A stretch of 64,000 nt of DNA from an uncultured SAR116 cluster alpha proteobacterium (GCA_902618195.1 CACMZO010000003.1:1176-65175), one strand, 5' to 3'. Counted from the first letter of the stretch, positions 19,425 to 41,388 are shown. Program-made: numbers and translations. Notes: generated by a model from the letters alone, not told the origin.

Positions 19425-21194
19425 TTATTTAAATTTCTTTTTTACATAAGACCCTGGAGCATTTTCAATTACCAGAAATTCGTTATTATGATTAAAATTC
19501 ATTTCATCTAAAGAACCACTCTTCTTTCGTATCCAAGATGCCCATTCGCCCCACCAAGACCCTTCATTTTTCTTTGCTTTGTAAAACCATTCATTAATAT
19601 CTTCCATTTTTGTCTCATTGGTCCAATATCCATATTTAACAGAGTTTTCTGGATTTATTATACCTGCTATATGACCACTTCCTGCTAAAATAAATTTTTT
19701 TTCTCCAGTTGTTTTATTCAAACCAAAAAAGGAAGATTTCCATGGAGCAATATGATCAGTATGTGTTGCAACAGCAAAAATTGGTAGTTTAATATCTTCT
19801 AATGATACAATTTCATCAAAAACATTTAATTTTCCTTTTGAAAGCATATTTTTTTGATAAAAATTTTCTAAATATTCTAAAGCCATAACTCCAGGTAAAT
19901 TAGTGGAGTCACTATTCCAGTATAATAGATCAAATGGTGGTGGTTTTTTTCCCATAAGGTATGATTTTATGGCGGGACCATAAACTAGATCATTTGATCT
20001 TAAAAAACTAAAAGTTTTTGCAAGGAAACTTCCTTCCATATAACCATACTTTTCAATTTGTTTATTTATTGATGATAGATATTCATCTGTTACAAATATA
20101 GATAAATCTCCTGGATCTTCAAAATCTGTAAGTGTTGTAAAAAATGTACTTGATTTAATAAATTTAATATTTTTCTTACTTAGATATGCTAATGTTGAAG
20201 CTAGCAATGTGCCTCCAATACAATAACCAATAGTATTAATTTGATCTTGCTTACAATAACGTTTAACAACATCGGAAGCTTTTAACAATCCGTTATCGAT
20301 GTAATCTTCAAATGATACATTCTTATGTTCAGTTCCAGGATTTACCCAAGAAATTACAAACACTGATAAATTTTTCTTTAAACAAAATTGAATGAAACTA
20401 TTTTCACGCTTTAAATCTAAAATATAAAATTTATTAATCCATGGAGGTATAATTAGCAACGGTACCGAATAACATTTTTTTGATAAAGGTTCATAATGAA
20501 TAAGTTGAAATAATTCATTTTGAAATATTACTGATCCTTTTGATTGAGCAATATTTTTCCCAACTTCAAATGCATCATCATCAGTTAAGCTTACGTTTAA
20601 CTCACCATCATTTTTTTCTAAGTCATTGACTAAATTCTCAAGACCATCAACAAGCGACTTACCTTTAGTATCGATTGCTTCTTTAATAGCTTCTGGGTTA
20701 GTTCCTAAGAAATTAGTTGGAGAAAAAAAATCTACCATTTGTTTAGTAAAAAAACTTATTTGTTTCTTATCGGGTTTTGATAGACCCTCTATACTATTGA
20801 CAGTTTCTTCAATAATATTAGACGAGGTGATGTATTGATTTTTAATCATTTTGAAATACGGGTTATTCTCCCAAGTGCTTTCTTTGAATCTTCTGTCTGA
20901 CACATCAGCTTTATTTTCTGTTTGATTTAAAAAATCTTTTTGAGCATCTGACCATATTTGAAGAGTAGATTTGTAAAATTTAACTTGATTTTCTATTAAT
21001 CTTGATGGGTTTGAAAGCATCTCAGAAAAATATTTAGACGCTGCTTTATAATATAATTCTTGGTTTGGTTTTGCATAATCTGAATCATTATTTTTATTAG
21101 CTAGTGATAAAACAAGTCTTTTAGTCAACAAATCAATCCTATTTAGATTTTCTTGTAATTCATCAAATTCACTTGTTTTATTATTATTATTCAT
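19425..21194 (-). CDS. phaC: Class I poly(3-hydroxyalkanoate) synthase
   Basis: 589 aa. Lipase-box-like 'IGYCIGGTL' (G-x-C-x-G-G), 'PLLIIPPWINKFYILDL' and 'SGHIAGIINP'. Confidence 0.9.
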   Translation of the reverse strand: MNNNNKTSEFDELQENLNRIDLLTKRLVLSLANKNNDSDYAKPNQELYYKAASKYFSEMLSNPSRLIENQVKFYKSTLQIWSDAQKDFLNQTENKADVSDRRFKESTWENNPYFKMIKNQYITSSNIIEETVNSIEGLSKPDKKQISFFTKQMVDFFSPTNFLGTNPEAIKEAIDTKGKSLVDGLENLVNDLEKNDGELNVSLTDDDAFEVGKNIAQSKGSVIFQNELFQLIHYEPLSKKCYSVPLLIIPPWINKFYILDLKRENSFIQFCLKKNLSVFVISWVNPGTEHKNVSFEDYIDNGLLKASDVVKRYCKQDQINTIGYCIGGTLLASTLAYLSKKNIKFIKSSTFFTTLTDFEDPGDLSIFVTDEYLSSINKQIEKYGYMEGSFLAKTFSFLRSNDLVYGPAIKSYLMGKKPPPFDLLYWNSDSTNLPGVMALEYLENFYQKNMLSKGKLNVFDEIVSLEDIKLPIFAVATHTDHIAPWKSSFFGLNKTTGEKKFILAGSGHIAGIINPENSVKYGYWTNETKMEDINEWFYKAKKNEGSWWGEWASWIRKKSGSLDEMNFNHNNEFLVIENAPGSYVKKKFK

Positions 21195-21239
21195 TTTTTG
21201 TTTCCCGATTAGTAAATTATATAATAGAATTTTAGTTAA

Positions 21240-22475
21240 TTGCTAGGAATGTATATGCAAATATCAACTTATGATTTTTTTGAAACTTCAAGACAATATA
21301 ATGAATGGATTAGTTCTTCTCTGAAAACTTTTTGGGGAAACCCTATTTTTGGTCTTAATCCTAGTCCAATTCCTCAAGTAATGTTTACTTATGGAAAATT
21401 GACTGAGCATTATCTGTTAAGAGTAACTTCAAAACCAGATTGGGGAATAAATTCTTTTGTAGCTAATGGAAATGAATATAGCGTCTCAAAAAAAGTAATC
21501 TTAAAAAAACCTTTTTGTGAGTTGATTAAATTTGAAACTAATAGAAAAAAAGCAAATATTAAAAAAGTTCTCATTATTGCTCCCATGTCAGGACATTACG
21601 CAACTCTGACAAGAAACACAGTTTTATCTTTATTACCAAATTGTGAAGTTTTTGTGACAGATTGGTTGAATGCACGAGACGTATCTCTATCGAAAGGTAA
21701 ATTTGATATTGAAGACTTCACTAAATATTTAATTGAATTTTATAAGTTTCTTTCGCCAGATTTAAATGTAATGGCAATATGTCAACCTGCACCATTAGCT
21801 CTAGCGGCTTTATCATTTATTTCTAAAAATTATTATAAAAAGAAACCAAGTACTTTAACATTAATTGGAGGCCCAATTGATCCAGAAGCAAACCCTACAT
21901 CTGTAACTGACTTTGGAAACAAACTGAGCCTAGATTATTTAAAAAACACCATGACAATGCCAGTTGGTGTAAATTACAAAGGAGTAGGTAGATCTGTATA
22001 TCCTGGGATAATTCAATTATCGTCCTTCATATCAATGAACTTTAAAACGCATCTTAACTCTTTTTTTGATCAAGTTTTTAGAGAAATTGAAGGTATTGCC
22101 TCTGAAAATGATCGTCATAATAAATTTTACAATGAATATTTAGCCGTGATGGACATGACTGCAGAATTTTATCTTACAACAGTAAATAGAATTTTTAAAA
22201 AAAGAGAAATTGCAAAAAATATATTTTCTTTGGAAAATGAAGCTTTAGATCTAAATGATATCAAAGATATCCCGATTTTTATAATCGAAGGTAAAAACGA
22301 TGATATTTCAGCCCCTGGTCAATGTCTTGCAGCTTTAGAGATCTTAAAAAAGATTCCTGATAACCTTAAATTTAGTTATTTACATGAAAATGCTGGACAT
22401 TATGGAATTTTTAGTGGAAAGGCTTGGAGAGAAGATATCCGTCCCGAGTTCATAAATTTCATTAATAAATTTTAG
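21240..22475 (+). CDS. phaZ: Intracellular PHB/PHA depolymerase (PhaZ, PHB_depo_C family)
   Basis: 'IAPMSGHYATLTRNTVLSLLPNCEVFVTDWLNARDV' matches the conserved PhaZ core. The true start is probably ATG 21249 or 21255; the track uses TTG 21240. Confidence 0.8.
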   Translation: MLGMYMQISTYDFFETSRQYNEWISSSLKTFWGNPIFGLNPSPIPQVMFTYGKLTEHYLLRVTSKPDWGINSFVANGNEYSVSKKVILKKPFCELIKFETNRKKANIKKVLIIAPMSGHYATLTRNTVLSLLPNCEVFVTDWLNARDVSLSKGKFDIEDFTKYLIEFYKFLSPDLNVMAICQPAPLALAALSFISKNYYKKKPSTLTLIGGPIDPEANPTSVTDFGNKLSLDYLKNTMTMPVGVNYKGVGRSVYPGIIQLSSFISMNFKTHLNSFFDQVFREIEGIASENDRHNKFYNEYLAVMDMTAEFYLTTVNRIFKKREIAKNIFSLENEALDLNDIKDIPIFIIEGKNDDISAPGQCLAALEILKKIPDNLKFSYLHENAGHYGIFSGKAWREDIRPEFINFINKF

Positions 22476-31520: not shown

Positions 31521-32495
31521 TTAAGGTTTCAAATATAAACTTCCTCCACCCTTTCTTGACTCTAAAATATCATGTGCTTGAGAAACATTTTTAAGATCAA
31601 AACACATTTTATCTTCGAGTGAATAAACGTTATTTTTAAATTGATCAAATACTGACCTACTCATATTTTCAAACAAGCTTCTTTGATTTGTGTAGTGAAA
31701 TAATATAGGTCGAGAAATAGATAAAGATTTTTGAGCAAGTTTTGACATTTCTATGGGTAGAATTGGACCTGATGATTGACCAAAGTTGATCAAATAACCA
31801 CAATTAGAAGCTAAATCAAAAGATTGTTCAAAAGTATCAAAACCTACTGAATCATAAACTAGATCAAATCCATTACCTTTAGTTATTTCTTTAGAATATT
31901 CAATTAAATTATCATCATTGTAAACAAATGCATTTTTACATCCGTATGATTTTGCCAATTTTATTTTTTCTTGAGAACCAACTGTCCCTATTACAATTTT
32001 ACCAATAGAATTTAAATACTGACAAAGTAATCTTCCAACACCACCTGCAGCTGCTGTAACTAAAATTATTTTTTTATCCTTTAAACTGAAAACTTGCTCA
32101 GTTAACATATTAACCGTAAGAGCTCTTGAAAAATTTGTAGCCATAGTTGCATCATCAAGTTCATCGGGTATCTTGGCCACAATTTTGTGATTAATTACTC
32201 TATGGGAAGAGTAGGCCCCATAAGATCCCGTAATATATACAACTCTATCACCAACTCTTAAATTATTTACACTTTTTCCTAATTTTTCAATAATTCCAGA
32301 AGCTTCAACTCCTGGTATTCCAGGTAAATTTAATGTTTTATATAGTCCTGTTCTTACATAAATATCGTGAAAATGAATTCCAATTGCAGTTTGTTTTATT
32401 AAAATTTCATCATCAGCTGGATCATTTACAGTAATTTTTTCAATATTTAATACATCTGATTGACCATACATCCTTTGTACTATAGCTTCAGGCAT
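31521..32495 (-). CDS. Quinone oxidoreductase-like MDR (zeta-crystallin/Qor family)
   Basis: 324 aa. 'PGIPGVEASGII', 'VTAAAGGVGRLLCQ' and 'GGSLYLKP'. Confidence 0.8.
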   Translation of the reverse strand: MPEAIVQRMYGQSDVLNIEKITVNDPADDEILIKQTAIGIHFHDIYVRTGLYKTLNLPGIPGVEASGIIEKLGKSVNNLRVGDRVVYITGSYGAYSSHRVINHKIVAKIPDELDDATMATNFSRALTVNMLTEQVFSLKDKKIILVTAAAGGVGRLLCQYLNSIGKIVIGTVGSQEKIKLAKSYGCKNAFVYNDDNLIEYSKEITKGNGFDLVYDSVGFDTFEQSFDLASNCGYLINFGQSSGPILPIEMSKLAQKSLSISRPILFHYTNQRSLFENMSRSVFDQFKNNVYSLEDKMCFDLKNVSQAHDILESRKGGGSLYLKP

Positions 32496-32525
32496 AATTT
32501 ATTCTTTCATTATCTATTTTCATAT

Positions 32526-32948
32526 CTAATTAAAGTAATCTTTTATAGCAACACAACATTCTTCTAATGAGAAATGAACTTCAGTTGCATAAAATTCCAA
32601 GAAAGGATGCAATGTGTCTCCTTTTCCTCTCCATACAATTATAATTTTGTTTTTTGTATGTGCATGTGCAACTTCAGCCATGCTTCCCCAACGTTTACCT
32701 GGTTGATTTTCTCTCATGTCGCATAATAAAACTGTGCTATTAGAAATATCCTGTAAATCCATTTTTACTATTCGATTAACATTATTTTTATTGTTATAAT
32801 CACAGTGTTGTTCCCATCTTCTTGTTGGGTCAAGTGTTCTTATACCTTCTTTGGAAAGTAAATTAGTAGCTTGCTCTCTCCACTTCATCATTTCATTTTC
32901 TTTGTAACCTTCCATGCCACCACATAAATAAACGTAATTTTTATCCAT
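32526..32948 (-). CDS. Nucleoside 2-deoxyribosyltransferase-like protein (NDT/DNPH1-like Rossmannoid fold)
   Basis: 140 aa. 'VYLCGGMEG...WREQ', 'DLQDISNSTVLLCDM' and 'GSMAEVAHAHTKNKIIIV' fit the NDT-like pattern, with a Glu in the G-x-x-x-E-x-G/A-x-A segment. Confidence 0.5.
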   Translation of the reverse strand: MDKNYVYLCGGMEGYKENEMMKWREQATNLLSKEGIRTLDPTRRWEQHCDYNNKNNVNRIVKMDLQDISNSTVLLCDMRENQPGKRWGSMAEVAHAHTKNKIIIVWRGKGDTLHPFLEFYATEVHFSLEECCVAIKDYFN

Positions 32949-32966
32949 TATAAACCTATAAATTTA

Positions 32967-33608
32967 TTATAATTTCTTTCGATAATAGTGAATTTTTAAA
33001 TCTTCTTCACTTATTGGAGTTTGTAATAATCTCACAAAACTTTCTTGTTCACCAATTATTAAATATTTATCATCAACAGCTTCAATATACCTTCTAAGCC
33101 CTTCAGCTAGTTGAGCCTTTGCAGATCTAGGTAATTCATCTAATTCATTCATAAATCTTCTAACGCCATTAGCCACATAATTCGCAGGTGTATTTTTAGA
33201 TTCATGTAAACCTGGTGATAAAACAAATTCAGGTTTATCAACCTTATAAACTTCCTTTATTGCTTTTAAATATTTTTTTTCTGAAAAATCATTACCAAAA
33301 TAATGTTTAGCAACATCTTTTGTTAATTGAAGCCAATACGGCCATCTTAAAAATTTATAGCCAATATTTGTAAAATATTCAGCTCTTTCTTCATCTCTTT
33401 TTAATTTCCAAACGTTTTCATAATGATCGGGGCCTTCGTACTCCCAAATAATTTTCATTTTATCTGAGAAGCAATCAACCATATAATATTTTCTTTTATT
33501 ATTTGGATCATAGGCAAATCTTTTCTGACTACCCCATTCTCCATTAGGCCAAAAAATTTTAGCAGTAATTAAAAGATTTTTTTCTGTCATCTCACCTTTA
33601 GGTATCAA
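32967..33608 (-). CDS. Hypothetical protein with a Vsr/DUF559-like PD-(D/E)xK endonuclease-type core
   Basis: 'YYMVDCFSDKMKIIWEYEGPDHYE...KLKRDEERAEYFTNIGYKFLRWPY' resembles the D...E-x-D/E-G-x-x-H...RD..R...L...G...LR pattern of DUF559/Vsr-like nucleases. The C-terminal half is helical and unassigned. Confidence 0.4.
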   Translation of the reverse strand: MIPKGEMTEKNLLITAKIFWPNGEWGSQKRFAYDPNNKRKYYMVDCFSDKMKIIWEYEGPDHYENVWKLKRDEERAEYFTNIGYKFLRWPYWLQLTKDVAKHYFGNDFSEKKYLKAIKEVYKVDKPEFVLSPGLHESKNTPANYVANGVRRFMNELDELPRSAKAQLAEGLRRYIEAVDDKYLIIGEQESFVRLLQTPISEEDLKIHYYRKKL

Positions 33609-33610
33609 TT

Positions 33611-33904
33611 TTAGTTTCCTACACCATTTTTGTAATCAGGAACTAAATACATTAATGCTAATTTAGAATATTCTTCTAAATTGTTGTCAACAGAAATACC
33701 TTTTGCTTTTAATTTTTTTGGTCCATTTTCTATTTTTAATCTATTTTCCCATTCTCCTTGAATGCCAATCGTTATGAGTGTGGTAGTATCAGCAACATAC
33801 TTTATTAATGCTTTTGAGTGAATATTAATATCTAAGTTATCTGAGTTGCCTGGCCTAACAGGTTCATCCACAATTCCAATCAGTTTTGTCATAACATTTT
33901 CCAA
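33611..33904 (-). CDS. Hypothetical 97-aa protein. It resembles the N-terminus of a KAP-family P-loop NTPase with a degenerate Walker A, so it may be a gene remnant.
   Basis: 'DNLDINIHSKALIKYVADTTTLITIGIQGEWENRLK' parallels the KAP pattern D-x-L-x...A-x-x-L-x-x-[YI]...I-G-I-x-G-x-W-G-S-G-K-[ST]. The GSGK[ST] is replaced by ENRLK and the rest of the NTPase is absent. Confidence 0.3.
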   Translation of the reverse strand: MENVMTKLIGIVDEPVRPGNSDNLDINIHSKALIKYVADTTTLITIGIQGEWENRLKIENGPKKLKAKGISVDNNLEEYSKLALMYLVPDYKNGVGN

Positions 33905-33968
33905 ATTTGTTGAATTATTTTTTTATTTTTTTTATCATTAGTCAAGATTATTTATTTAGGAGAAGTCT

Positions 33969-34211
33969 ATGGGTATTCTAGATTGGATGGCTGCTGGATA
34001 TTTAGCTAAACGAGGAAGTAATAAATTAAACCCTCCACAGGTTACGGTACCTAATGGCTTTGAAATGAGAGCTTTAAAAGCAAAAGGCATGAATGAATAT
34101 ACTATTGTGTATTCTAAAAAAGGAAGTGGTTCAACTTCACAATTTACCATAAGTAGAAATACAAGATCAATGACTGGTGGTTGGAAATTTCATTGGCCTG
34201 AAAATTATTAG
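33969..34211 (+). CDS. Hypothetical small protein (80 aa), the only plus-strand gene in the island
   Basis: Strong SD AGGAGA (33958-33963) lies 5 nt upstream of ATG 33969. I recognise no motif. Confidence 0.5.
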   Translation: MGILDWMAAGYLAKRGSNKLNPPQVTVPNGFEMRALKAKGMNEYTIVYSKKGSGSTSQFTISRNTRSMTGGWKFHWPENY

Positions 34212-34214
34212 AAA

Positions 34215-34652
34215 TTATAACAGATAATTTAACACATCCTTCCAGGTTTTAAATTTTTCACTTCCAAATTGTATTAATTCACCTTTAAAATCTCCAGCTC
34301 CATTAGCCAACCTATCATCAATGAGGTAATCCCCAAAATTCAAGTTTTTGTTATGACTAAGAATTAATCGTTTGTATGCATACTTACCGAGATATCTCTT
34401 TACCCATAATAACTTGTCTGACCAAGCCGTTGGATTGTTCCATGGTGCAGTTGAAAGAATGTAAGTATCATATGTTTTAGACAATTTTTGATAAGATTCA
34501 ATAGCATTAGGCATAGGATTCATTAATGAAAAAATTCTTGGAACCTCATCGTAATTTTTAAGATATTTATTTTTATCCTTTTCTGACAAGTTGTTAATAC
34601 CAGATTTGAAGTCAACCAAAACATTGTCCATATCTACAAATAAAATTTTCAT
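34215..34652 (-). CDS. 5'(3')-deoxyribonucleotidase (NT5C-type HAD phosphatase)
   Basis: 'MKILFVDMDNVLVDF' carries the DxDxV/T HAD motif I typical of NT5C. 'YILSTAPW' and 'DYLIDDR' are motifs II and III. ATG 34652 sits 2 nt after the upstream TAG; the track start is TTG 34664. Confidence 0.7.
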   Translation of the reverse strand: MKILFVDMDNVLVDFKSGINNLSEKDKNKYLKNYDEVPRIFSLMNPMPNAIESYQKLSKTYDTYILSTAPWNNPTAWSDKLLWVKRYLGKYAYKRLILSHNKNLNFGDYLIDDRLANGAGDFKGELIQFGSEKFKTWKDVLNYLL

Positions 34653-34654
34653 CT

Positions 34655-35368
34655 CTAATTGCAATTATAATAAAATAAGGGTCCTCTTACCTCATGCGCA
34701 GGAAAATTTAATAACGAATAACCTCTAAATTTTTGCATTTTTTCTTCTTTGTATCCATTAAACTTATATCTTTTATTTTTAGTTGAAGATCTTGCTGTTT
34801 CCCAATTACATATTCTATAAATACCCTTTATTATACCGTTATAAACACCTATGCCATATTCTGCTTTTTTAGCTCTATTAATATTTAATACCCAATTACC
34901 TCTTATTTTGTTATATAGCATCTCTTCATCCATATCCTTGTTCCAAGCTTTATTAATTTTAAAACATACTGCAGAAATATTTTCTTTAAACTCTTCTCCT
35001 TTATAAATTTCATCAATTAAATTAATATCCATTATTCCAAATTTATCAGAATTTATTCCTTTAACTTTATTTGTTATTTGATCAACACCAAAAACATCTA
35101 TTAAGGTTGCTTCCAATAAAAAAGCCTCATCTTGATTTAAACCATGCCTAATAATTTCAACCTTAGGACCTCCACTTTTTTTTAATGAGTTAATAATATC
35201 AAATTTTGGATCTTTAATATCTAATTTAGATTTTTGGAAAAGATGAGAAAAAACTCTATTTCCTTTCCCCTTACCTATATAAAAGTAATTTTGGTTTTCT
35301 CCAGGGTACTTCAACCCGTATACATAATATTTTAATGCATTTATAGTTTTTGGTGAAAATTTTCTCAT
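34655..35368 (-). CDS. GIY-YIG nuclease-domain protein (COG3680-like) with an unassigned C-terminal domain
   Basis: 'YYVYGLKYPGENQNYFYIGKGKGNRVFSHL' is GIY-(x10)-YIG followed by the conserved Arg. Its ATG overlaps the upstream TGA (ATGA at 35365-35368). Confidence 0.65.
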   Translation of the reverse strand: MRKFSPKTINALKYYVYGLKYPGENQNYFYIGKGKGNRVFSHLFQKSKLDIKDPKFDIINSLKKSGGPKVEIIRHGLNQDEAFLLEATLIDVFGVDQITNKVKGINSDKFGIMDINLIDEIYKGEEFKENISAVCFKINKAWNKDMDEEMLYNKIRGNWVLNINRAKKAEYGIGVYNGIIKGIYRICNWETARSSTKNKRYKFNGYKEEKMQKFRGYSLLNFPAHEVRGPLFYYNCN

Positions 35369-36669
35369 ATATTTTTGGTTTTTGAAAAATTAATACCTGA
35401 TTTATTAAATAAATTAACAATTTCTACATACAAGTCAGTATTAGCCATAGTTACAAGTTCAAACAAATTCTCATTTGGGTTATCGGCAAATAAAGATTTT
35501 TTGTTTAAATAATATTCAAAAAATAAATTGTGAGAATAATCATGCATATCTCCAAATCTAATAGAATAATCTTCATCTATATGCTTGTAATCAATTGCAA
35601 TTTTATTAACTATTTGGATTGCTTCTTTTAATTTATTTGAGTGTAAATTAATATCTAATTTTAACTTTATACTCTCTTTTGAAAAATCTGATACTGCAAC
35701 ATTTTCAATGGGTTGTGATATAAACATTTTGTTTGGCAAGGCAGTTATGTTTCCGCTCAAGTCTTCAAGAAGTATAGACCTCAATCCTAATTTTTTTACA
35801 TTTCCCTCATGTCCTCCAATTTTAATTTTCTGACCAATTTCAAAAGGTCTTTGTAAATAAAGTAAAATACCTCCTATCAGATTTCCAATAAAATCTTGTG
35901 CTGCCAAAGCAACTGCCATCCCTCCAAGTCCAACTCCTGCTAAAATAGAAGTAGAATTGTATCCAGCGCTCTCCAAACTTAATGAAAGACCTATTGCCCA
36001 AATCAAAATTTGAAAAATTGTGCTTACAGCAGCTTCAACTGCCTCATTAACACTTGTGTCATCTCTTTGTAAATAAGGAATTATAATTAGTTCGTGTGAC
36101 ATTCTATAAAAAGTAGAGAGGAACCATGTTATAAATAAAATTATAACCGCCGGATAATAATTGTAATAATAGTCAATCCAGTTCCCTGACAATTCTAATG
36201 TATTTATTATGATATTTGAAGCAACTGTAATGAGAATAAGATAAACTGGTAATTGAAATTTTTTAAAATTTTCACCATATTGTACGTATCTAACTATTCT
36301 TGATAATCTTAAAAATCTTGCGAGCCTTAATAATCGTGTTAACCTAAATAATGGCGCCCAACCAAAATTTTCACTTAAATTTTCAACAAAAGGTTCTATA
36401 AGAATTGGAATACTGGCCAATACTATTACAAGATCAAATTTATTCCAATTGTCTTTTAAATACAACTTTATGCCTAAATTCCATACTTTAATAATTAACT
36501 CTATCAGAAAAAAAACAACACACCCATAATCAACCCAATTAATCCAATTTCCAGTTTTTTGTGTTAAATTTGGATCTAAGTCCAAAGCAATAAAAATAGA
36601 AGCATTAATTAATACAACTAGCATTACTAGTTTTTCATTAATTAAATAAGTTAAAATTGATTTGGTCAT
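35365..36669 (-). CDS. Voltage-sensor-like (S1-S4, Ion_trans-type) domain fused to an MscS-family mechanosensitive channel domain
   Basis: S3-like 'DNWNKFDLVIVLASIPIL'. S4 'LFRLTRLLRLARFLRLSRIVR' has Arg at every third position seven times. MscS core: 'GVGLGGMAVALAAQDFIGNLIGGILLYLQRPFEIGQKIKIGGHEGNVKKLGLRSILLEDLSGNITALPN'. Confidence 0.75.
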   Translation of the reverse strand: MTKSILTYLINEKLVMLVVLINASIFIALDLDPNLTQKTGNWINWVDYGCVVFFLIELIIKVWNLGIKLYLKDNWNKFDLVIVLASIPILIEPFVENLSENFGWAPLFRLTRLLRLARFLRLSRIVRYVQYGENFKKFQLPVYLILITVASNIIINTLELSGNWIDYYYNYYPAVIILFITWFLSTFYRMSHELIIIPYLQRDDTSVNEAVEAAVSTIFQILIWAIGLSLSLESAGYNSTSILAGVGLGGMAVALAAQDFIGNLIGGILLYLQRPFEIGQKIKIGGHEGNVKKLGLRSILLEDLSGNITALPNKMFISQPIENVAVSDFSKESIKLKLDINLHSNKLKEAIQIVNKIAIDYKHIDEDYSIRFGDMHDYSHNLFFEYYLNKKSLFADNPNENLFELVTMANTDLYVEIVNLFNKSGINFSKTKNI

Positions 36670-36671
36670 TT

Positions 36672-37304
36672 TTATTTTTTATGAGATTTAAAATTTGCTG
36701 AAATTATTCCTGCCGGCATTGCTATGATTCCAATCCCACATATGCCCACAATACCTGCAAAAACTTTTCCTAAAACTGTAATTGGATAGACATCTCCATA
36801 ACCTACAGTTGTTAATGTTGAAATTGCCCACCACATGGAACGTGGAATACTTCCAAATGCTTCAGGTTGAATGTTTCCTTCAAGTAGATAAATAAAAATT
36901 GAACTAGCAAATAGAATTAATAATGTAATTGCAAAACAAGCATAAAGTTGAAATTTTGAAGCAATTAATGCCTGAGAAAATAATCTCAATGACGGATTAT
37001 TCTGAATTAATTTTAACAATCGAAGCATCCTTAATAATCTAACTATCCGAAGAAGTAAAAAGTCTGATGAAAATGCAGTCATTAATGAAGGAATAATTGC
37101 TAATAAATCAATAATTGACATCGGACTAAAAATAAATTTTATTCTGCCCATAAATCCACTATATTTCTTAATTCTGCCAGCAACAATAATTCTCAAAAAG
37201 TACTCTAAAGTAAAAATTATTAAAAAAATTGTCTCAAAAATATTTAATGCATATTCATATTTATTTTTAAAAACATCTTCGGTCTCAAGAACGACCGAAA
37301 TCAA
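36672..37304 (-). CDS. Voltage-gated (Kv/KvAP-like) potassium channel. The N-terminus is unresolved (see finding).
   Basis: Selectivity filter 'TLTTVGYGDV', S4 'LLLRIVRLLRMLRLLKL' and S3 'SIIDLLAIIPSL'. The track start is a TTG inside the predicted S1 helix. The reading frame stays open upstream to 37412. Confidence 0.8.
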   Translation of the reverse strand: MISVVLETEDVFKNKYEYALNIFETIFLIIFTLEYFLRIIVAGRIKKYSGFMGRIKFIFSPMSIIDLLAIIPSLMTAFSSDFLLLRIVRLLRMLRLLKLIQNNPSLRLFSQALIASKFQLYACFAITLLILFASSIFIYLLEGNIQPEAFGSIPRSMWWAISTLTTVGYGDVYPITVLGKVFAGIVGICGIGIIAMPAGIISANFKSHKK

Positions 37305-37465
37305 AGATAAAATAATTACTGTGGTTATAAACTTATTAAGAAATGTACTTTTTTCATCATCATGAAATGATTTAAAAAGATATGAGAGAATTTTTTTAAT
37401 TTTTCTAAACCTCTAATTACAAAATATTAAAAATTTTTAATTTAAATCGAATTCCATAATATATT

Positions 37466-38932
37466 TCAAACATATGTTTGTAAAACTTTTAATAATTTAT
37501 ACATTGCTAATGTATCTAACTCACAATATTTAAGCGCATTATTAAAAAATATGGTCTCATTTTCTTTTTTTAATTCTCCCAGAAAATATTTTTCAAAATT
37601 AATTGATACTTCCATTCCACCTTGGATCTCCAGGTCATCATAACTTTCATTAGTAAACGTAGGTAATACTGCTTTGATCGACGCAGACCCATTTTGTTTT
37701 GGTGAATATAAATGTCTTGATCTAAAGGGTCTTAAAAGGTCAATCATTCTCTCATTAATCTTCAATAAATCATGTTTTATTGCAGGAAAAATATCTGATA
37801 GGGAAGAAATTACATTTTTTTCAAAACTTTGATTGTATACAATTACTGACCCAGTTTTTTTTATACTTTTCAACAATGTTTCTGCAAATTCTAATCTAAA
37901 ATCTTTTTTGTCTTTACTAATATATTCAACATGTTTTATCTCACTATTTTCATTTTCTTGAATATGCAATGAAAACTGAAATGGAATATTTTCATAAGGT
38001 TTTGAGTTTTTAAAAATTGGTATTGCTGGTCCAAAAGTTTCAAAATCTAAAAAATAATATGGAAAGATTAAAGTATCTAAAAACTTTTTAATTTCTCTCT
38101 TATTAACAAATATATCACCAGATAAATATGAGTTGACATCCACTAATTTATTACCTTTGGGATAGTCTTTTATATCAAGTTCTTTTATATCAATTGAATT
38201 ATTATTTCTATGAACTTCTTCTGCTTTTTTTGCAGAAAAAACATTAAAAATATTATATTTTGGAAGACCTTTCCAACAGTATTCTTTAAACTGACATTCC
38301 TTACAATGTGAACCAATATCTACAATCGGTTCATTTTTAACTGACAAAGATTCAATTAATTCTGAAATTTGTAAACTTATTATATTCCCTTTATGCAAAA
38401 CTTTTTTAGTAACATCAGATTTTAGAAATAATTTATTTACATCAATTTGATCACCTCTTTGATAATTTTTGTTAAGGTGAAGAACTGATAATTTTGTTAC
38501 ATTTAAACCTAATGATTTAAATACATGGTTTTGAAAACTTAAGTCTTCAACATGATAATCTTTGACACCTGTGGAACTTTTAACTTCTATTAACTCCCAA
38601 CTATCATTATCTTTTATCAAAATATCTGCTAATGCAAAAATACCTTCAGCTTTGTTAAAACCTACACCCTCATAAATTAATTTTCCACCATCATTAATAT
38701 ATTCAAAAGTTTCTTTAAAGGCATTTTCAACTTCATAGTAAGGAGATTTTGGTTGAAAACCTTTACCAAAATATTCTCTAGCTAATAAACCAACTTTATT
38801 ACCTATTTCAAATCTGTAATCTTTAAAATCATCACCTTTACAAAGTTCAGTTTTATGTAATGACAACCACAAAGACTTTTTGCAATTTAAACCATCTAAA
38901 TAATTTGACTTTGATAAAGAATTTTTCATCAT
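37466..38932 (-). CDS. DUF2779-type protein: N-terminal Cas4/RecB-like PD-(D/E)xK nuclease with a Cys cluster, plus a C-terminal DEDD/RNase-H-like exonuclease-like domain
   Basis: 'SKSNYLDGLNCKKSLWL'. 'LADILIKDNDSWELIEVKSS' is D...E-x-K. 'HCKECQFKEYC' is CX2CX5C, with an N-terminal Cys as in Cas4. C-terminal motifs: 'YFLDFETF', 'VYNQSFEKNV' and 'YCELDTLAMYKL'. Confidence 0.6.
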   Translation of the reverse strand: MMKNSLSKSNYLDGLNCKKSLWLSLHKTELCKGDDFKDYRFEIGNKVGLLAREYFGKGFQPKSPYYEVENAFKETFEYINDGGKLIYEGVGFNKAEGIFALADILIKDNDSWELIEVKSSTGVKDYHVEDLSFQNHVFKSLGLNVTKLSVLHLNKNYQRGDQIDVNKLFLKSDVTKKVLHKGNIISLQISELIESLSVKNEPIVDIGSHCKECQFKEYCWKGLPKYNIFNVFSAKKAEEVHRNNNSIDIKELDIKDYPKGNKLVDVNSYLSGDIFVNKREIKKFLDTLIFPYYFLDFETFGPAIPIFKNSKPYENIPFQFSLHIQENENSEIKHVEYISKDKKDFRLEFAETLLKSIKKTGSVIVYNQSFEKNVISSLSDIFPAIKHDLLKINERMIDLLRPFRSRHLYSPKQNGSASIKAVLPTFTNESYDDLEIQGGMEVSINFEKYFLGELKKENETIFFNNALKYCELDTLAMYKLLKVLQTYV

Positions 38933-39015
38933 ATATTTGTATTACATAAAAATTTAAGAGTTATTAATATAAGATTGAAGCAGTAACTGATGCTTATCAA
39001 ATCATTTTCAATAAA

Positions 39016-39423
39016 TTAATCTTCATTAAACCTTTGATTATTTAAATGTTTTTGAAATACAAGAGGTTCATCAATATATTTTAAAATTATTTTGCCTGAT
39101 CCTGTGCCACTAAGGTCAACGGTTCCAAAGCCAAATATACGACCTAAAAGGCTTTGCGTAAGATTAACCTCTTCAATTCTATCAAGAGAAATCTCTTCAG
39201 TATCTCTTCTTATCCATCCTATTTTTTGAATATATCTTTCATTAGTTAAAACTCTTTCAGTTGTCCATTTGTTAATCATCATTTTTAAAAATATAAAAAT
39301 TCCAATTAAAACAATTCCTAATACTAATAGATATAAAAAAGCAATTAAACTATATGTCCAATGAAATTCAACTCTATAAATTATAGTTTCATTTTTTCCA
39401 ATGGTTTTTTCTACATAACTCAT
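39016..39423 (-). CDS. Membrane protein with a bacterial PH domain (bPH_2 / YdbS-YdbT-like)
   Basis: 135 aa. A two-TM hairpin ('YSLIAFLYLLVLGIVLIGIFIFL') is followed by 'TERVLTNERYIQKIGWIRRDTEEISLDRIEEVNLTQSLLGRIFGFGTVDL', typical of bPH_2. Confidence 0.65.
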   Translation of the reverse strand: MSYVEKTIGKNETIIYRVEFHWTYSLIAFLYLLVLGIVLIGIFIFLKMMINKWTTERVLTNERYIQKIGWIRRDTEEISLDRIEEVNLTQSLLGRIFGFGTVDLSGTGSGKIILKYIDEPLVFQKHLNNQRFNED

Positions 39424-39449
39424 AAATTTTATTTACTTACTTATAGAAA

Positions 39450-39767
39450 TTATCTTCCAAAAAACCACCACACTAAGGCTGTTGTAGGGCCTAAACTTGA
39501 AGTTCCTACAGCTTTTGCAGCGTCCTTAAGATCAATTAATTTTTTACCTCCGGATGAAGACCCTTCTCTAATACTTCTGCCATCTCTTATGTTACACAAA
39601 CACTTGCCTCCCGACGAAGAACCTTCTCTAATTTCATTACTTCTCTTAATGTTGCCAAGACATTTTCCTCCAGAACTGCTGCCTTCTCTTAACTCATCAC
39701 TTCGGTTCAAATTTCCAACCGTTGTGGACCCTCTTTTAATTAAATTGCCATCAAATTTTATCGACAT
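39450..39767 (-). CDS. Small repeat protein with four ~20-aa units ('4-fold beta-flower'-like) and a short hydrophobic C-terminal tail
   Basis: Strong SD AAGGAG 6 nt upstream of ATG 39767. Units: FDGNLIKRGSTTVGNL / NRSDELREGSSSGGKCLGNI / KRSNEIREGSSSGGKCLCNI / RDGRSIREGSSSGGKKLIDL. Tail: 'GPTTALVWWFFGR'. Confidence 0.6.
   Translation of the reverse strand: MSIKFDGNLIKRGSTTVGNLNRSDELREGSSSGGKCLGNIKRSNEIREGSSSGGKCLCNIRDGRSIREGSSSGGKKLIDLKDAAKAVGTSSLGPTTALVWWFFGR
39528..39755 (-). repeat. Intragenic tandem repeat, about 60-bp period, 3 full units plus 1 shorter unit (a coding repeat)
   Basis: Units are conserved at the protein level with synonymous divergence. The Ser-Ser-Ser triplet is encoded as tct tca tcc, tct tcg tcg and agc agt tct. 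Confidence 0.8.
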
Positions 39768-39864
39768 ATTTACTCCTTTAATTCTAAATTGATTATTGTA
39801 TCAGTATAAAATATTATGAAAAAATAATAAATTAATTTGATATAGATTTTAAGGAACTATTATA

Positions 39865-41388
39865 ATGAATGTTGATGATGTACTTACTATAAAACTTAAT
39901 TCTAATGATAATGTTGCAACAGCGTTTAAAAATATTTCAAAGGGAGAAACTACCCAAAACATTAAAGCTGAAAATAATATACCAAAAGGTCATAAAATAG
40001 CTTTATCTAAGATCTTGAAAGGTGAAAAAATTATTAAATATGATCAAATTATTGGTCTAGCAAGAAATGATATAAATATAGGCGAACATGTTCATATAGA
40101 AAATACTGAGTTCAAATCAACAGAACATGATTATGAGTTTTCAACATCAATAAGGTTGCCAAATTTTGTTCCAGAAAGTAAAAGACCTTCTTTTAACGGT
40201 TTTAAAAGACCTAATGGTCAAGTAGGAACAAGAAATTATATTGGCATTTTAACTTCCGTCAATTGTTCTGCAACTGCAGCTAGGAATATTGCAAATGCTT
40301 TTGATGATAATATACTCTCACAATACCCTAACGTTGATGGAGTTGTATCTTTTACACATGGTACAGGTTGTGGAATGGCAGACTCTGGAGATGGCTTTGA
40401 AGCTTTACAAAGAGTTTTATTAGGCTATATCCAACATCCTAACTTAGCTGGGGTTCTTTTGATAGGATTAGGTTGTGAAGCCAACCAAATTAAGTTTTTA
40501 CTTGACGCTTATAACTTAAATGAAAATCCTTTTTTTCAAACAATGACTATACAAGAAATGGGAGGGTTAAGAAAAACAATTGAAGAAGGTATTAAGCGAA
40601 TACATTCAATGTTACCAGAAATCAATCAATTAAAAAGATCTCCTCAATCAGTTGAACATCTCTCACTAGCACTTCAGTGTGGTGGTTCAGACGCATGGTC
40701 AGGCATTACTTCAAATCCTGCCCTTGGTCATGCGGCAGATCTTTTAGTAAAAAATGGAGGTACTGCAGTTTTAGCAGAAACGCCTGAAATTTATGGAGCT
40801 GAACACTTGCTAACTAGGAGAGCAATAAACAAAACTGTTGGTGATAAATTAGTAGATAGAATTCTTTGGTGGGAAGATTATGTCAGTAGAAATAAAGGAA
40901 GTCTTAACAATAATCCTTCTCCTGGAAATAAGGCAGGTGGGCTTACAACTATATTAGAAAAATCTTTAGGTGCTGCTGCAAAAGGAGGAACTACGCCATT
41001 AAATGATGTACTTCTTTATGCCGAAAAAGCAAAATCTAAAGGTTTTTTATTCATGGATAGTCCTGGCTACGATCCAGCATCAGTTACTGGGCAAATAGCT
41101 ACAGGCTGTAATCTTGTAAGTTTCACAACTGGAAGAGGTTCTGCTTTTGGTTCAAAACCATCACCATCTATAAAAATAGCTACTAATACTGAAATGTATG
41201 AACATATGAAAGAAGATATGGACGTTAATGCAGGAAAAGTTGTTACAAATAATGAAAGTATTGAAACAGTTGGAAGTGAAATATTTGACCTGTTAGTTAG
41301 GGTAGCTTCTGGGGAAAAATCAAAGTCTGAAAAACAAGGTCTAGGTGATTTAGAATTTGTACCATGGCAAATTGGAGCAACGATGTAG
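39865..41388 (+). CDS. UxaA-family sugar-acid dehydratase (altronate / galactarate dehydratase-like)
   Basis: 507 aa. N-terminal SAF domain ('DNVATAFKNISKGE', 'IPKGHKIAL'). C-terminal UxaA motifs 'VNCSATAA', 'HGTGCG', 'GCEANQ' and 'TTGRGS'. Confidence 0.8.
   Translation: MNVDDVLTIKLNSNDNVATAFKNISKGETTQNIKAENNIPKGHKIALSKILKGEKIIKYDQIIGLARNDINIGEHVHIENTEFKSTEHDYEFSTSIRLPNFVPESKRPSFNGFKRPNGQVGTRNYIGILTSVNCSATAARNIANAFDDNILSQYPNVDGVVSFTHGTGCGMADSGDGFEALQRVLLGYIQHPNLAGVLLIGLGCEANQIKFLLDAYNLNENPFFQTMTIQEMGGLRKTIEEGIKRIHSMLPEINQLKRSPQSVEHLSLALQCGGSDAWSGITSNPALGHAADLLVKNGGTAVLAETPEIYGAEHLLTRRAINKTVGDKLVDRILWWEDYVSRNKGSLNNNPSPGNKAGGLTTILEKSLGAAAKGGTTPLNDVLLYAEKAKSKGFLFMDSPGYDPASVTGQIATGCNLVSFTTGRGSAFGSKPSPSIKIATNTEMYEHMKEDMDVNAGKVVTNNESIETVGSEIFDLLVRVASGEKSKSEKQGLGDLEFVPWQIGATM

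What the first reader, a model, noticed from the sequence alone, without database searches (positions are those of the whole stretch)
34215..37363. Candidate undescribed system: translationally coupled operon Kv channel -> voltage-sensor/MscS fusion -> GIY-YIG nuclease -> deoxyribonucleotidase
Seen directly, the four minus-strand genes are joined by coupling-type junctions:
- TAA-aa-ATG at 36674-36667;
- an ATGA overlap at 35368-35365;
- TAG-ag-ATG at 34657-34650.

Two of the genes encode proteins with classical S4 voltage sensors (Arg every third residue). One of these has a K+ selectivity filter (TVGYGD) and the other an MscS pore. The other two genes encode DNA- and dNMP-directed enzymes: a GIY-YIG nuclease with an unassigned C-terminal domain, and an NT5C-type HAD 5'(3')-deoxyribonucleotidase, a family common in phage genomes.

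No metabolic logic links ion channels to these enzymes. Known precedents separately link an ion-channel/motor module to nuclease effectors (Zorya) and link nucleotide depletion to anti-phage defence (dCTP deaminase / dGTPase systems).

Hypothesis: membrane-potential perturbation during phage entry or lysis is sensed or amplified by the channel pair and coupled to DNA cleavage and dNMP degradation. Alternatively, the channels are abortive-infection effectors. The null explanation is a chance juxtaposition of housekeeping channel genes with a phage-derived nuclease/nucleotidase cassette in a very compact genome.
Basis: partly seen in the sequence, partly recalled or inferred. Interest (0 to 1): 0.8.

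Follow-up and report, generated by a model that had tools for sequence, protein, structure and literature searches.

The report
Channel genes beside a restriction nuclease
The four tightly packed genes are real, but they are two separately mobile modules joined in one lineage: a two-gene ion-channel cassette and a known type of anti-phage restriction nuclease with nucleotide-processing neighbours, all inside a 7.3-kb accessory island, so this is not a new channel-coupled defence system.

Summary
One exception: the ATG given as the Kv start (37363) is out of frame.

The GIY-YIG protein belongs to the CMoRE/PD-T4-3 family. This is a characterised single-gene type IV restriction endonuclease that cuts 5hmC/glucosyl-5hmC phage DNA. 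Its "unassigned" C-terminal domain is the modified-cytosine sensor.

All four genes lie in an 11-gene, ~7.3-kb accessory island (about 32496-39864). The island is absent from 10 of 10 contigs of close relatives, where the flanking genes directly abut.

Related islands keep a backbone of CMoRE-like nuclease, small protein, KAP NTPase or its remnant, DUF559, NDT-like and NT5C, with or without the channels. Two orthologous loci differ exactly by presence or absence of the Kv + VSD-MscS pair. There the pair sits at the other end of the backbone and points towards it.

VSD-MscS also occurs alone. Distant homologues in Vibrio and other genera have no nuclease neighbours. Junctions of 5 nt or less are ordinary here (16 of 46 same-strand pairs).

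Verdict: a lineage-specific juxtaposition inside a decaying defence/flexible island. Two things remain open: the uncharacterised VSD-MscS fusion family, and its recurrent proximity to DUF2779 and CMoRE-like nucleases.

The parts
32496..39864 (.). Accessory genomic island of 11 genes (~7.3 kb), inserted in the 114-bp spacer between the quinone-oxidoreductase-like gene (31521-32495, -) and the altronate/galactonate dehydratase gene (39865-41388, +).
   Evidence: in 10/10 contigs of close relatives (L260-L269) the two flanking genes are directly adjacent; alignment of the empty site against both junctions; the 90% clusters of flanking genes hold 436-828 members, those of island genes 1-25.
36672..37412 (-). 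Voltage-gated K+ channel (6TM, TVGYGD filter). The first canonical start is TTG 37304. In-frame coding homology extends to ~37403, so the start codon is unresolved (possibly ATT at 37400 or 37391, after AGAGG at 37415-37411).
   Evidence: Ion_trans 9.8e-37; phrog_7872 1.6e-42. (frame analysis against L083/L084 homologues; same sequence in L001 and L002).
35365..36669 (-). Fusion of a voltage-sensor domain (S1-S4, residues ~12-131) with a complete MscS channel (TM1-3, beta and alpha/beta domains, residues ~164-423).
   Evidence: profile against PDB gives CaV/NaV VSDs at 1.9e-30 for residues 15-133, and E. coli MscS 14-248 for residues 169-402. AF2 model pLDDT 79; Foldseek MscS 2.6e-14; family of ~44 clusters.
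34655..35368 (-). Member of the CMoRE / PD-T4-3 family: a type IV, modification-dependent GIY-YIG restriction endonuclease. N-terminal GIYxY-YIG nuclease plus C-terminal modified-cytosine-sensing domain.
   Evidence: PADLOC PD-T4-3 1.5e-34, residues 2-213 on profile 4-213/256. PDB 9u75/9u7u 3e-22, residues 4-191. Liu et al. 2026; invariant Y15, Y17, Y30, R38, E86.
34215..34652 (-). NT5C-type HAD 5'(3')-deoxyribonucleotidase (motif I D7-x-D9).
   Evidence: PF06941 5.5e-14; phrog_2643. PDB 5'(3')-deoxyribonucleotidases at ~2e-9.
33969..34211 (+). sm80: a conserved 76-81-aa protein of unknown function, with no Pfam, PADLOC or PHROG hit tested. It recurs next to the CMoRE-like gene or directly upstream of VSD-MscS.
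   Evidence: codon-position differences of 274/234/435 show it is coding on the + strand; no PADLOC hit.
33611..33904 (-). Internally deleted remnant of a KAP-family (PifA/QatA-like) defence NTPase. Walker A is lost.
   Evidence: residues 5-52 match residues 1-48 (88%) and residues 49-95 match residues 624-670 (72%) of the 672-aa KAP NTPase of L173; that protein hits PifA at 2e-34.
32967..33608 (-). DUF559 / Vsr-like PD-(D/E)XK endonuclease-like protein. It accompanies the marine CMoRE-like gene in almost every context.
   Evidence: PF04480 4.9e-6; present in all distinct GIY contexts with enough flank; reduced to 33 aa in L117.
32526..32948 (-). Nucleoside 2-deoxyribosyltransferase-like protein (PF15891/PF05014).
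37466..38932 (-). DUF2779 protein: a solo-Cas4-like PD-(D/E)XK nuclease fused to an RNase-H-like 3'-5' exonuclease domain. It is the most frequent neighbour of VSD-MscS (8 of 20 locus groups).
   Evidence: Literature.
39016..39423 (-). Membrane protein with a bacterial PH domain (bPH_2).
   Evidence: PF03703 8.4e-14; phrog_3707 4.7e-27.
39450..39767 (-). Small repeat protein with a sub-threshold Bflower_3 match. Its homologue sits next to the CMoRE-like gene in L083, L173 and L270.

Best explanation
The four genes are part of an 11-gene, ~7.3-kb flexible island acquired by a low-GC marine bacterium, probably an alphaproteobacterium. The island is a mosaic of independently functioning, independently mobile modules, packed without spacers as everywhere in this streamlined genome.

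Module 1 is a CMoRE/PD-T4-3-type restriction endonuclease. By homology, it recognises hypermodified cytosine in phage DNA with its C-terminal domain and cuts with its GIYxY-YIG domain, without needing partners. In this marine clade it travels on a backbone with a small protein (sm80), a KAP NTPase (here reduced to a 97-aa remnant), a DUF559 nuclease-like protein, an NDT-like enzyme and an NT5C deoxyribonucleotidase. An inferred, untested role for NT5C and the NDT-like enzyme is to dispose of the modified dNMPs released from restricted phage DNA.

Module 2 is a two-gene channel cassette: a Kv channel translationally coupled to a VSD-MscS fusion. It inserts as a unit at different places. Its function is inferred to be accessory ion/osmotic or membrane-potential homeostasis.

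In the window's lineage a rearrangement placed the cassette directly upstream of the nuclease. All four genes are therefore probably co-transcribed here, but that coupling is recent and lineage-specific, not the signature of a four-component machine.

Shown here: domain identities, island status, separability of the modules, and non-conservation of order and strand. Inferred: substrate specificity, co-transcription, the nucleotide-disposal role, and the physiological role of the channels.
For: (1) CMoRE membership. PADLOC PD-T4-3 1.5e-34 over nearly the full length. PDB 9u75/9u7u at 3e-22 across both domains. The family is single-component and cuts 5hmC/5ghmC DNA.

(2) Island status. The empty site is seen in 10/10 relatives (junctions). 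Island genes are 20-800 times rarer in 90% clusters than the flanking genes.

(3) The backbone occurs without channels:
- L173 and L270, GIY 71%: Bflower< GIY> sm80< KAP> DUF559> .. NDT> CitMHS<.
- L172: with DUF559, sm80 and KAP.
- L175-179: GIY> DUF559>.

(4) The channel pair is a discrete indel. L083 reads CitMHS> Kv> VSD-MscS> NDT<. In the orthologous L173, CitMHS and NDT are 4 nt apart, and the two CitMHS proteins are 87% identical.

(5) Orientation is not conserved. GIY is on the same strand as the channels only in the window lineage. It is on the opposite strand in L083-87 and L102, and convergent in L088-91 and L121.

(6) VSD-MscS occurs with none of these neighbours: L098-100 (67% identical), L111, L113-115, L119. 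The same holds for all relatives at 26-34% identity from Vibrio, Magnetococcales and betaproteobacteria.

(7) Tight junctions are the norm in this genome.

(8) The island is decaying: KAP remnant, DUF559 nearly deleted in L117, Kv without a canonical start.

(9) Neither channel protein matches any PADLOC defence model.
Against: The co-localisation is not random. Among 20 dereplicated VSD-MscS locus groups (44-100% identical, GC 0.28-0.49), the neighbours within 6 kb were:
- DUF2779 in 8 groups.
- sm80 in about 7, often immediately upstream on the same strand.
- The CMoRE-like gene with DUF559 in 5.
- NT5C in 3, including a contig with Bacteroidota-type neighbours.

The DUF2779 copies are only 22-36% identical to each other, while the VSD-MscS copies are 50-67% identical. 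The proximity has therefore survived gene replacement, which common descent alone explains poorly.

Another K+ channel (Castor/RCK type) occupies the island in L173. Some selective or mechanistic link between these channels and nuclease-rich islands therefore cannot be excluded.

No transcript, phage-challenge or electrophysiological data exist.
Confidence: 0.68

Rival explanations
1. Kv, VSD-MscS, GIY-YIG and NT5C form one four-component anti-phage system, in which a membrane-potential change sensed or amplified by the channels is coupled to DNA cleavage and dNMP degradation.
For: The four genes are contiguous with junctions of 5 nt or less. They are bounded by a 161-nt gap upstream and a convergent gene downstream, so they are probably one transcript in this lineage. 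All four families also co-occur in L083/L101, and three of the four in L084-86 and L102.
Against: - Order and strand are not conserved.
- GIY and NT5C are separated from the channels and on other strands in L083.
- The backbone exists without channels (L172, L173, L175-179, L270).
- VSD-MscS exists without the backbone (L098-100 and others).
- Kv is missing from 16 of 20 VSD-MscS groups.
- CMoRE is experimentally sufficient alone (PMC12923530).
- The Kv gene in the window has no canonical start.
- Neither channel has a PADLOC hit.
Confidence: 0.05
2. The VSD-MscS fusion, with sm80 and/or the DUF2779 solo-Cas4-exonuclease, is itself a new membrane-linked defence or abortive-infection module. 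It would be a voltage-gated large-conductance channel that collapses the membrane potential or senses phage-induced depolarisation. Its linkage to CMoRE would reflect the clustering of defence systems.
For: - DUF2779 lies within 6 kb in 8 of 20 groups, in at least four arrangements, including same-strand tight packing in L110 (sm80> VSD-MscS> 92aa> DUF2779>) and in L106.
- sm80 sits directly upstream in several groups.
- Neighbours include a STAND NTPase (L100), a PvuRts1I-like enzyme (L088) and a primase-bearing mobile element (L113).
Against: - Distant VSD-MscS relatives in Vibrio, Magnetococcales and betaproteobacteria lack all these neighbours.
- Several marine members sit among housekeeping genes (L099, L111, L115).
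- DUF2779 is widespread and quasi-essential in a minimal mycoplasma, so it need not be a defence gene.
- There is no PADLOC match.
- Accessory transporters commonly share flexible islands with defence genes.
Confidence: 0.12
3. A functional sub-unit exists, but it is nuclease plus nucleotide enzymes, not channels. The CMoRE-like nuclease fragments modified phage DNA, and NT5C and the NDT-like enzyme dephosphorylate or deglycosylate the released modified deoxynucleotides. These therefore cannot be re-incorporated into host DNA, where they would make it a target. DUF559 and KAP would be further partners.
For: GIY, DUF559, NDT-like and NT5C stay together through rearrangements in the window, L083, L173 and L270. 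DUF559 accompanies GIY in all 8 distinct marine contexts with enough flank, across GC 0.27-0.50. The enzymatic logic follows from the known activities of the NT5C and NDT/DNPH1-type families (general knowledge).
Against: - NT5C and NDT are absent from L088, L121, L172 and L175-179.
- DUF559 is almost deleted in L117, although GIY is intact.
- 0 of 80 distant CMoRE loci in viral/prophage contigs have any of these neighbours.
- The published family is single-component.
Confidence: 0.15

Closest known systems
CMoRE / PD-T4-3 (E. coli; Vassallo et al. 2022 screen; Liu et al., Nat Commun 2026, PDB 9U75/9U7U)
   Same: Two-domain architecture. GIYxY-YIG motif (Y15, Y17, Y30). Catalytic Arg38 and Glu86. 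C-terminal sensing domain alignable to residue ~191-213. Size of 237 aa against ~257 aa.
   Different: Only ~30-35% identical. It lacks the run of four acidic residues that forms the autoinhibitory loop. In this marine clade it is nearly always accompanied by a DUF559 protein and a small 80-aa protein, whereas published CMoRE systems are described as single-component. Substrate is untested.
Defence islands / flexible genomic islands of streamlined marine bacteria
   Same: Strain-variable block between conserved core genes. It holds restriction-type nucleases, a KAP (PifA-like) NTPase remnant and accessory transport proteins. No integrase is present. The gene content is mosaic and decaying.
   Different: Small (7.3 kb). 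It carries an unusual pair of voltage-sensor-containing channels.
Zorya (ZorAB proton-channel motor + ZorC/ZorD nuclease)
   Same: Only the general idea of membrane ion-conducting proteins encoded near nucleases.
   Different: No MotAB/ZorAB homology and no ZorC/D (no PADLOC hit). The channels here are Kv and MscS types. The gene linkage is not conserved.
MscS-family channels with extra N-terminal membrane domains (YnaI, MscK, YbiO, plant MSL)
   Same: Conserved MscS TM3 pore helix and the beta and alpha/beta cytoplasmic domains. Additional N-terminal helices.
   Different: The extra domain is a canonical S1-S4 voltage sensor with Arg at every third position in S4. No solved structure combines the two, and I found no paper describing the fusion.

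Membership tests
CMoRE / PD-T4-3 type IV restriction endonuclease | GIYxY-YIG motif with a third tyrosine | tested here: met
   K-Y14-Y15-V-Y17 ... F-Y30-I-G aligns with E. coli W-Y-V-Y ... F-Y-V-G. Y15, Y17 and Y30 are invariant in 24 homologues.
CMoRE / PD-T4-3 type IV restriction endonuclease | Catalytic Arg and Glu of the GIY-YIG fold | tested here: met
   R38 (GNRVF) and E86 (LLEATLID) align with the CMoRE residues and are invariant.
CMoRE / PD-T4-3 type IV restriction endonuclease | C-terminal modification-sensing domain | tested here: met
   The alignment to 9u75/9u7u continues through residues 100-191. The PADLOC profile is covered at positions 4-213 of 256. This is sequence level only.
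CMoRE / PD-T4-3 type IV restriction endonuclease | Autoinhibitory loop of four consecutive acidic residues (present in 'most' members) | tested here: not met
   The corresponding segment is QKSKLDIKDPKFD, with no acidic run. The paper does not treat this loop as universal.
CMoRE / PD-T4-3 type IV restriction endonuclease | Single-component system | tested here: inconclusive
   DUF559 is adjacent in all 8 distinct marine contexts, but is nearly deleted in L117 where GIY is intact. It is absent from 80 distant loci.
CMoRE / PD-T4-3 type IV restriction endonuclease | Cleavage restricted to 5hmC/5ghmC DNA; protection against phages with such DNA | not testable with these tools
   Needs biochemistry and phage assays.
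Voltage-gated K+ channel (6TM Kv) | S1-S4 voltage sensor with an Arg repeat in S4, and a TVGYG selectivity filter | tested here: met
   Pfam Ion_trans residues 4-208. LRIVRLLRMLRLLK and TTVGYGD read directly.
Voltage-gated K+ channel (6TM Kv) | Intact ORF with a start codon that preserves S1 | tested here: inconclusive
   No ATG, GTG or TTG lies in the homologous N-terminal region. The frame is open for 36 codons upstream of the TTG and is conserved with L083/L084. An ATT start is possible.
MscS family | TM3 pore helix plus beta-domain and cytoplasmic vestibule | tested here: met
   PF21088 and PF00924. The profile aligns to E. coli MscS residues 14-248. Foldseek gives 2.6e-14 to MscS.
NT5C 5'(3')-deoxyribonucleotidase (HAD) | HAD motif I DxDxV and the NT5C core/cap | tested here: met
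   MKILFVD7MD9NVL read directly. PF06941 scores 52.9 bits against a cut-off of 24.8. PDB cdN/mdN homologues hit at ~2e-9.
Zorya | ZorA/ZorB MotAB-like stator proteins plus ZorC/D or ZorE | tested here: not met
   No PADLOC hit for either channel protein or for the neighbours.
Multi-gene defence system (operon-level unit Kv/VSD-MscS/GIY/NT5C) | Gene set and order/strand conserved across divergent genomes | tested here: not met
   The arrangement is restricted to relatives whose VSD-MscS and GIY are ~99-100% identical. Elsewhere the genes are rearranged, on opposite strands, or missing.

The most novel reading that the evidence does not exclude
The VSD-MscS fusion, alone or with its translationally coupled Kv partner, the small sm80 protein and/or the DUF2779 Cas4-exonuclease, is a previously unrecognised membrane-potential-gated component of bacterial immunity. 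It would act as a sensor or an abortive-infection effector. This would explain why it repeatedly lands beside CMoRE-like, DUF2779, STAND and PvuRts1I-like genes in marine bacteria.
Probability: 0.1. Interest if true: 0.8.

Novelty: new variant of a known kind. Interest (0 to 1): 0.33.

Why it matters
The proposed channel-coupled nuclease system is best read as an artefact of genome compaction. This shows how start/stop overlaps in streamlined genomes can mimic functional operons.

What remains useful:
(i) CMoRE-type modification-dependent restriction is present in abundant low-GC marine plankton. There it rides on a conserved backbone (sm80, KAP NTPase, DUF559, NDT-like, NT5C) that differs from the single-gene systems described in enterobacteria. 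This hints that marine phages with hypermodified cytosines are a relevant selective pressure.
(ii) A family of about 44 sequence clusters fuses a canonical voltage sensor to a complete MscS channel. The fusion is sometimes paired with a Kv channel as a mobile two-gene cassette. The architecture has no solved structure and no physiology on record, and would interest channel biophysicists whatever its link to defence.

Tried and rejected
- Prophage or viral origin of the island. IMG/VR holds no VSD-MscS relative and only CMoRE homologues at 36% identity or less. GenBank phages hold only distant Kv and GIY homologues. Rejected.
- Site-specific integration. No integrase, tRNA or clear direct repeat was seen at the junctions.
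- Promoter/terminator scan. There were fewer promoter-like sites than in shuffles, and the single terminator-like hairpin lies inside Kv. Uninformative in 27% GC DNA.
- Programmed -1 slippage on the A6 run joining ATGATGATG to the Kv frame. Considered, but in-frame homology continues upstream of that ATG and the run is short. Not supported.
- Host taxonomy. Two cluster look-ups gave only one 'Flavobacteriaceae MAG' label. A FadB search gave one 'Alphaproteobacteria bacterium' label at 67% identity. No rRNA is present in the window. The taxon stays tentative.
- Literature searches for VSD-MscS fusions, or for mechanosensitive channels in phage defence, found nothing relevant.

Full report
OBSERVATION

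- TAA-aa-ATG at 36674-36667.
- An ATGA overlap at 35368-35365.
- TAG-ag-ATG at 34657-34650.

Pfam confirms the domains:
- Kv: Ion_trans 9.8e-37 plus Ion_trans_2. The TVGYGD filter and the S4 sequence LRIVRLLRMLRLLK are present.
- Second protein: Ion_trans (residues 13-156), then MscS TM2/3 and beta-domain (217-324).
- Third protein: LEM-3-type GIY-YIG domain.
- Fourth protein: NT5C, with HAD motif DMDNV at residues 7-11.

The same arrangement is found in GCA_902560885.1, a Tara Oceans contig and a further metagenome contig (L001, L002, L117). It is therefore not an assembly artefact.

Two corrections are needed. The Kv frame is open for 36 codons upstream of the first canonical start (TTG 37304). 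It is conserved at the protein level with the N-termini of Kv homologues in L083 and L084, but holds no ATG, GTG or TTG there. TTG 37304 would remove most of S1. The start is unresolved: it may be an ATT after AGAGG, or the gene may be decaying.

Second, the junctions are not special. The window is 94% coding and the median gap between same-strand neighbours is 13 nt. Sixteen of 46 such pairs are 5 nt or less apart, and other runs of three such junctions join metabolically unrelated genes.

WHAT THE GIY-YIG PROTEIN IS

The protein matches the PADLOC model of PD-T4-3 at 1.5e-34 over almost its full length. It matches the crystal structures 9U75/9U7U at 3e-22 over residues 4-191.

PD-T4-3 was characterised as CMoRE. 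It is a single-component type IV restriction endonuclease that degrades 5hmC- or glucosyl-5hmC-containing phage DNA. [quoted passage not shown]

The window protein has the third tyrosine (Y15-V-Y17 ... Y30-I-G), the catalytic R38 and E86, and the C-terminal domain. These residues are invariant in 24 homologues. It lacks the acidic autoinhibitory loop that most, but not all, members carry.

THE GENES LIE IN AN ACCESSORY ISLAND

A 90%-identical copy of the flanking dehydratase occurs on several hundred contigs. In all 10 long contigs examined, the oxidoreductase gene (window 31521-32495) lies 114 bp from the dehydratase gene (window 39865-41388). The window carries 7.3 kb with 11 genes in that spacer.

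Flanking genes have 436-828 members in their 90% clusters. The island genes have 1-25.

Read in the direction of transcription, the island holds:
- a Bflower-like protein;
- a bPH_2 membrane protein;
- a DUF2779 solo-Cas4/exonuclease fusion;
- Kv, VSD-MscS, the CMoRE-like gene and NT5C;
- a small conserved protein on the other strand (sm80; coding status confirmed by codon-position bias);
- a 97-aa ORF;
- a DUF559 nuclease-like protein;
- an NDT-like protein.

The 97-aa ORF is the fused N- and C-terminal ends of a 672-aa KAP NTPase that is intact in a related island and matches PifA/QatA defence models.

Nothing in IMG/VR or GenBank phages resembles the island closely.

IS THE FOUR-GENE UNIT CONSERVED?

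VSD-MscS defines a family of about 44 clusters. I collected its contexts from metagenomes and genomes. I dereplicated them into 20 locus groups and scored neighbours by tblastn and by HMMs built here.

Kv is immediately upstream in 4 groups and absent in the other 16. The CMoRE-like gene lies within 6 kb in 5 groups, but on the same strand only in the window's own group.

In L083 and L084-87 (VSD-MscS 66-67% identical) the order is CitMHS> Kv> VSD-MscS> NDT< DUF559< sm80> GIY< Bflower> NT5C>. In L088-91 and L121 it is VSD-MscS> GIY< , convergent and without Kv.

Contexts found starting from the nuclease show the same backbone without any Kv or VSD-MscS:
- L173 and L270: Bflower< GIY> sm80< KAP> DUF559> ... 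NDT> CitMHS<.
- L172: with DUF559, sm80 and KAP.
- L175-179: GIY> DUF559>.

L083 and L173 are orthologous loci; their CitMHS proteins are 87% identical. In L173, NDT and CitMHS are 4 nt apart. In L083, the 2.1-kb Kv + VSD-MscS pair sits exactly between them. The pair is thus a discrete two-gene cassette. In that lineage it is at the opposite end of the backbone from the nuclease.

Conversely, VSD-MscS at 67% identity (L098-100) and several more distant members have none of these neighbours. The relatives at 26-34% identity in Vibrio, Magnetococcales and betaproteobacteria have no nuclease or nucleotidase neighbours at all.

The modules are separable in both directions. The operon seen in the window is a lineage-specific rearrangement.

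MOST LIKELY MECHANISM

The CMoRE-like protein is expected to act as its E. coli relatives do. It would sense hypermodified cytosine through the C-terminal domain and cut through the GIYxY-YIG domain, independently of the channels. This rests on homology and is untested.

NT5C and the NDT-like enzyme may dispose of modified deoxynucleotides released from restricted DNA. This rests only on the known activities of the families and their repeated linkage in four arrangements. They are missing from other CMoRE-like loci.

The channel cassette most plausibly provides accessory ion or osmotic/membrane-potential control. A profile search and an AF2 model (pLDDT 79) show a canonical S1-S4 sensor, one extra helix and a complete MscS. 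No solved structure or paper I could find describes that fusion.

In the window the four genes are probably co-transcribed. There is a 161-nt gap with a promoter-like site upstream and a convergent gene downstream (weak evidence). That reflects packing, not a shared mechanism.

WHAT REMAINS UNEXPLAINED

VSD-MscS sits near nuclease or defence-type genes more often than chance placement would give:
- DUF2779 in 8 of 20 groups, although those DUF2779 copies are only 22-36% identical.
- sm80 directly upstream in several groups.
- A STAND NTPase, a PvuRts1I-like enzyme and a primase-bearing element in others.

L173 carries a different K+ channel in the island.

This fits accessory membrane proteins and defence genes sharing flexible islands. 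It does not exclude a real role of the fusion channel in immunity. I give that reading about 10%.

VERDICT

The interpretation as a new four-component channel-nuclease system is not supported.

The locus is a small, decaying defence/flexible island. It holds a new marine member, with variant gene company, of the known CMoRE/PD-T4-3 family, and next to it a mobile cassette encoding an uncharacterised voltage-sensor-MscS fusion.

Noticed in passing
window 33611-33904 (-): The 97-aa 'hypothetical' ORF is an in-frame internal-deletion remnant of a 672-aa KAP-family (PifA/QatA-like) defence NTPase. Residues 5-52 and 49-95 match the first 48 and the last 47 residues of the intact gene in L173. The Walker A motif is lost.
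   Followed up: yes
window 33969-34211 (+): A conserved 76-81-aa protein (MGLLDxLAAGYLAKRxHNKLNPP...SGGWxFHW) with no PADLOC hit. It always lies next to the CMoRE-like gene or immediately upstream of VSD-MscS. An antisense 64-aa ORF overlaps it, and a gene caller preferred that ORF in L088.
   Followed up: partly
window 37304-37415 (-): The Kv gene lacks a canonical start codon where its homologues begin. The frame is open and conserved upstream of TTG 37304. An out-of-frame ATGATGATG followed by an A6 run lies inside this stretch. The sequence is identical in three assemblies.
   Followed up: partly
L117:1997-2246: In a relative whose VSD-MscS and GIY are 99% identical, the KAP remnant and nearly all of DUF559 are deleted (33 aa left), while GIY, NT5C, sm80 and NDT stay intact. 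The island is eroding.
   Followed up: partly
L173:726-2609: A 627-aa Castor/Pollux-type channel with an RCK domain lies between NT5C and Bflower, in an island that lacks Kv/VSD-MscS. This is a second, unrelated K+ channel type in the same backbone.
   Followed up: no
L088:2432-3373: A PvuRts1I-like/SRA modification-dependent restriction enzyme (PADLOC mREase_II 1.6e-88) lies 3 kb from the VSD-MscS/CMoRE-like pair. This is a second enzyme class aimed at modified cytosine in the same neighbourhood.
   Followed up: partly
L113:1-6417: Here VSD-MscS lies in what looks like a mobile element (AAA_25/Toprim primase-helicase), next to a UDG-superfamily protein.
   Followed up: no
L110:525-4320: sm80, VSD-MscS, a 92-aa ORF and a 660-aa DUF2779 protein lie on one strand with touching or overlapping junctions. 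This is a different tight 'operon' involving the same channel.
   Followed up: partly
window 19425-22475: A class I PHA synthase and a PHA depolymerase sit in a 30% GC, 94%-coding genome. A FadB homologue at 67% identity is labelled 'Alphaproteobacteria bacterium'. The host taxon was not settled.
   Followed up: partly
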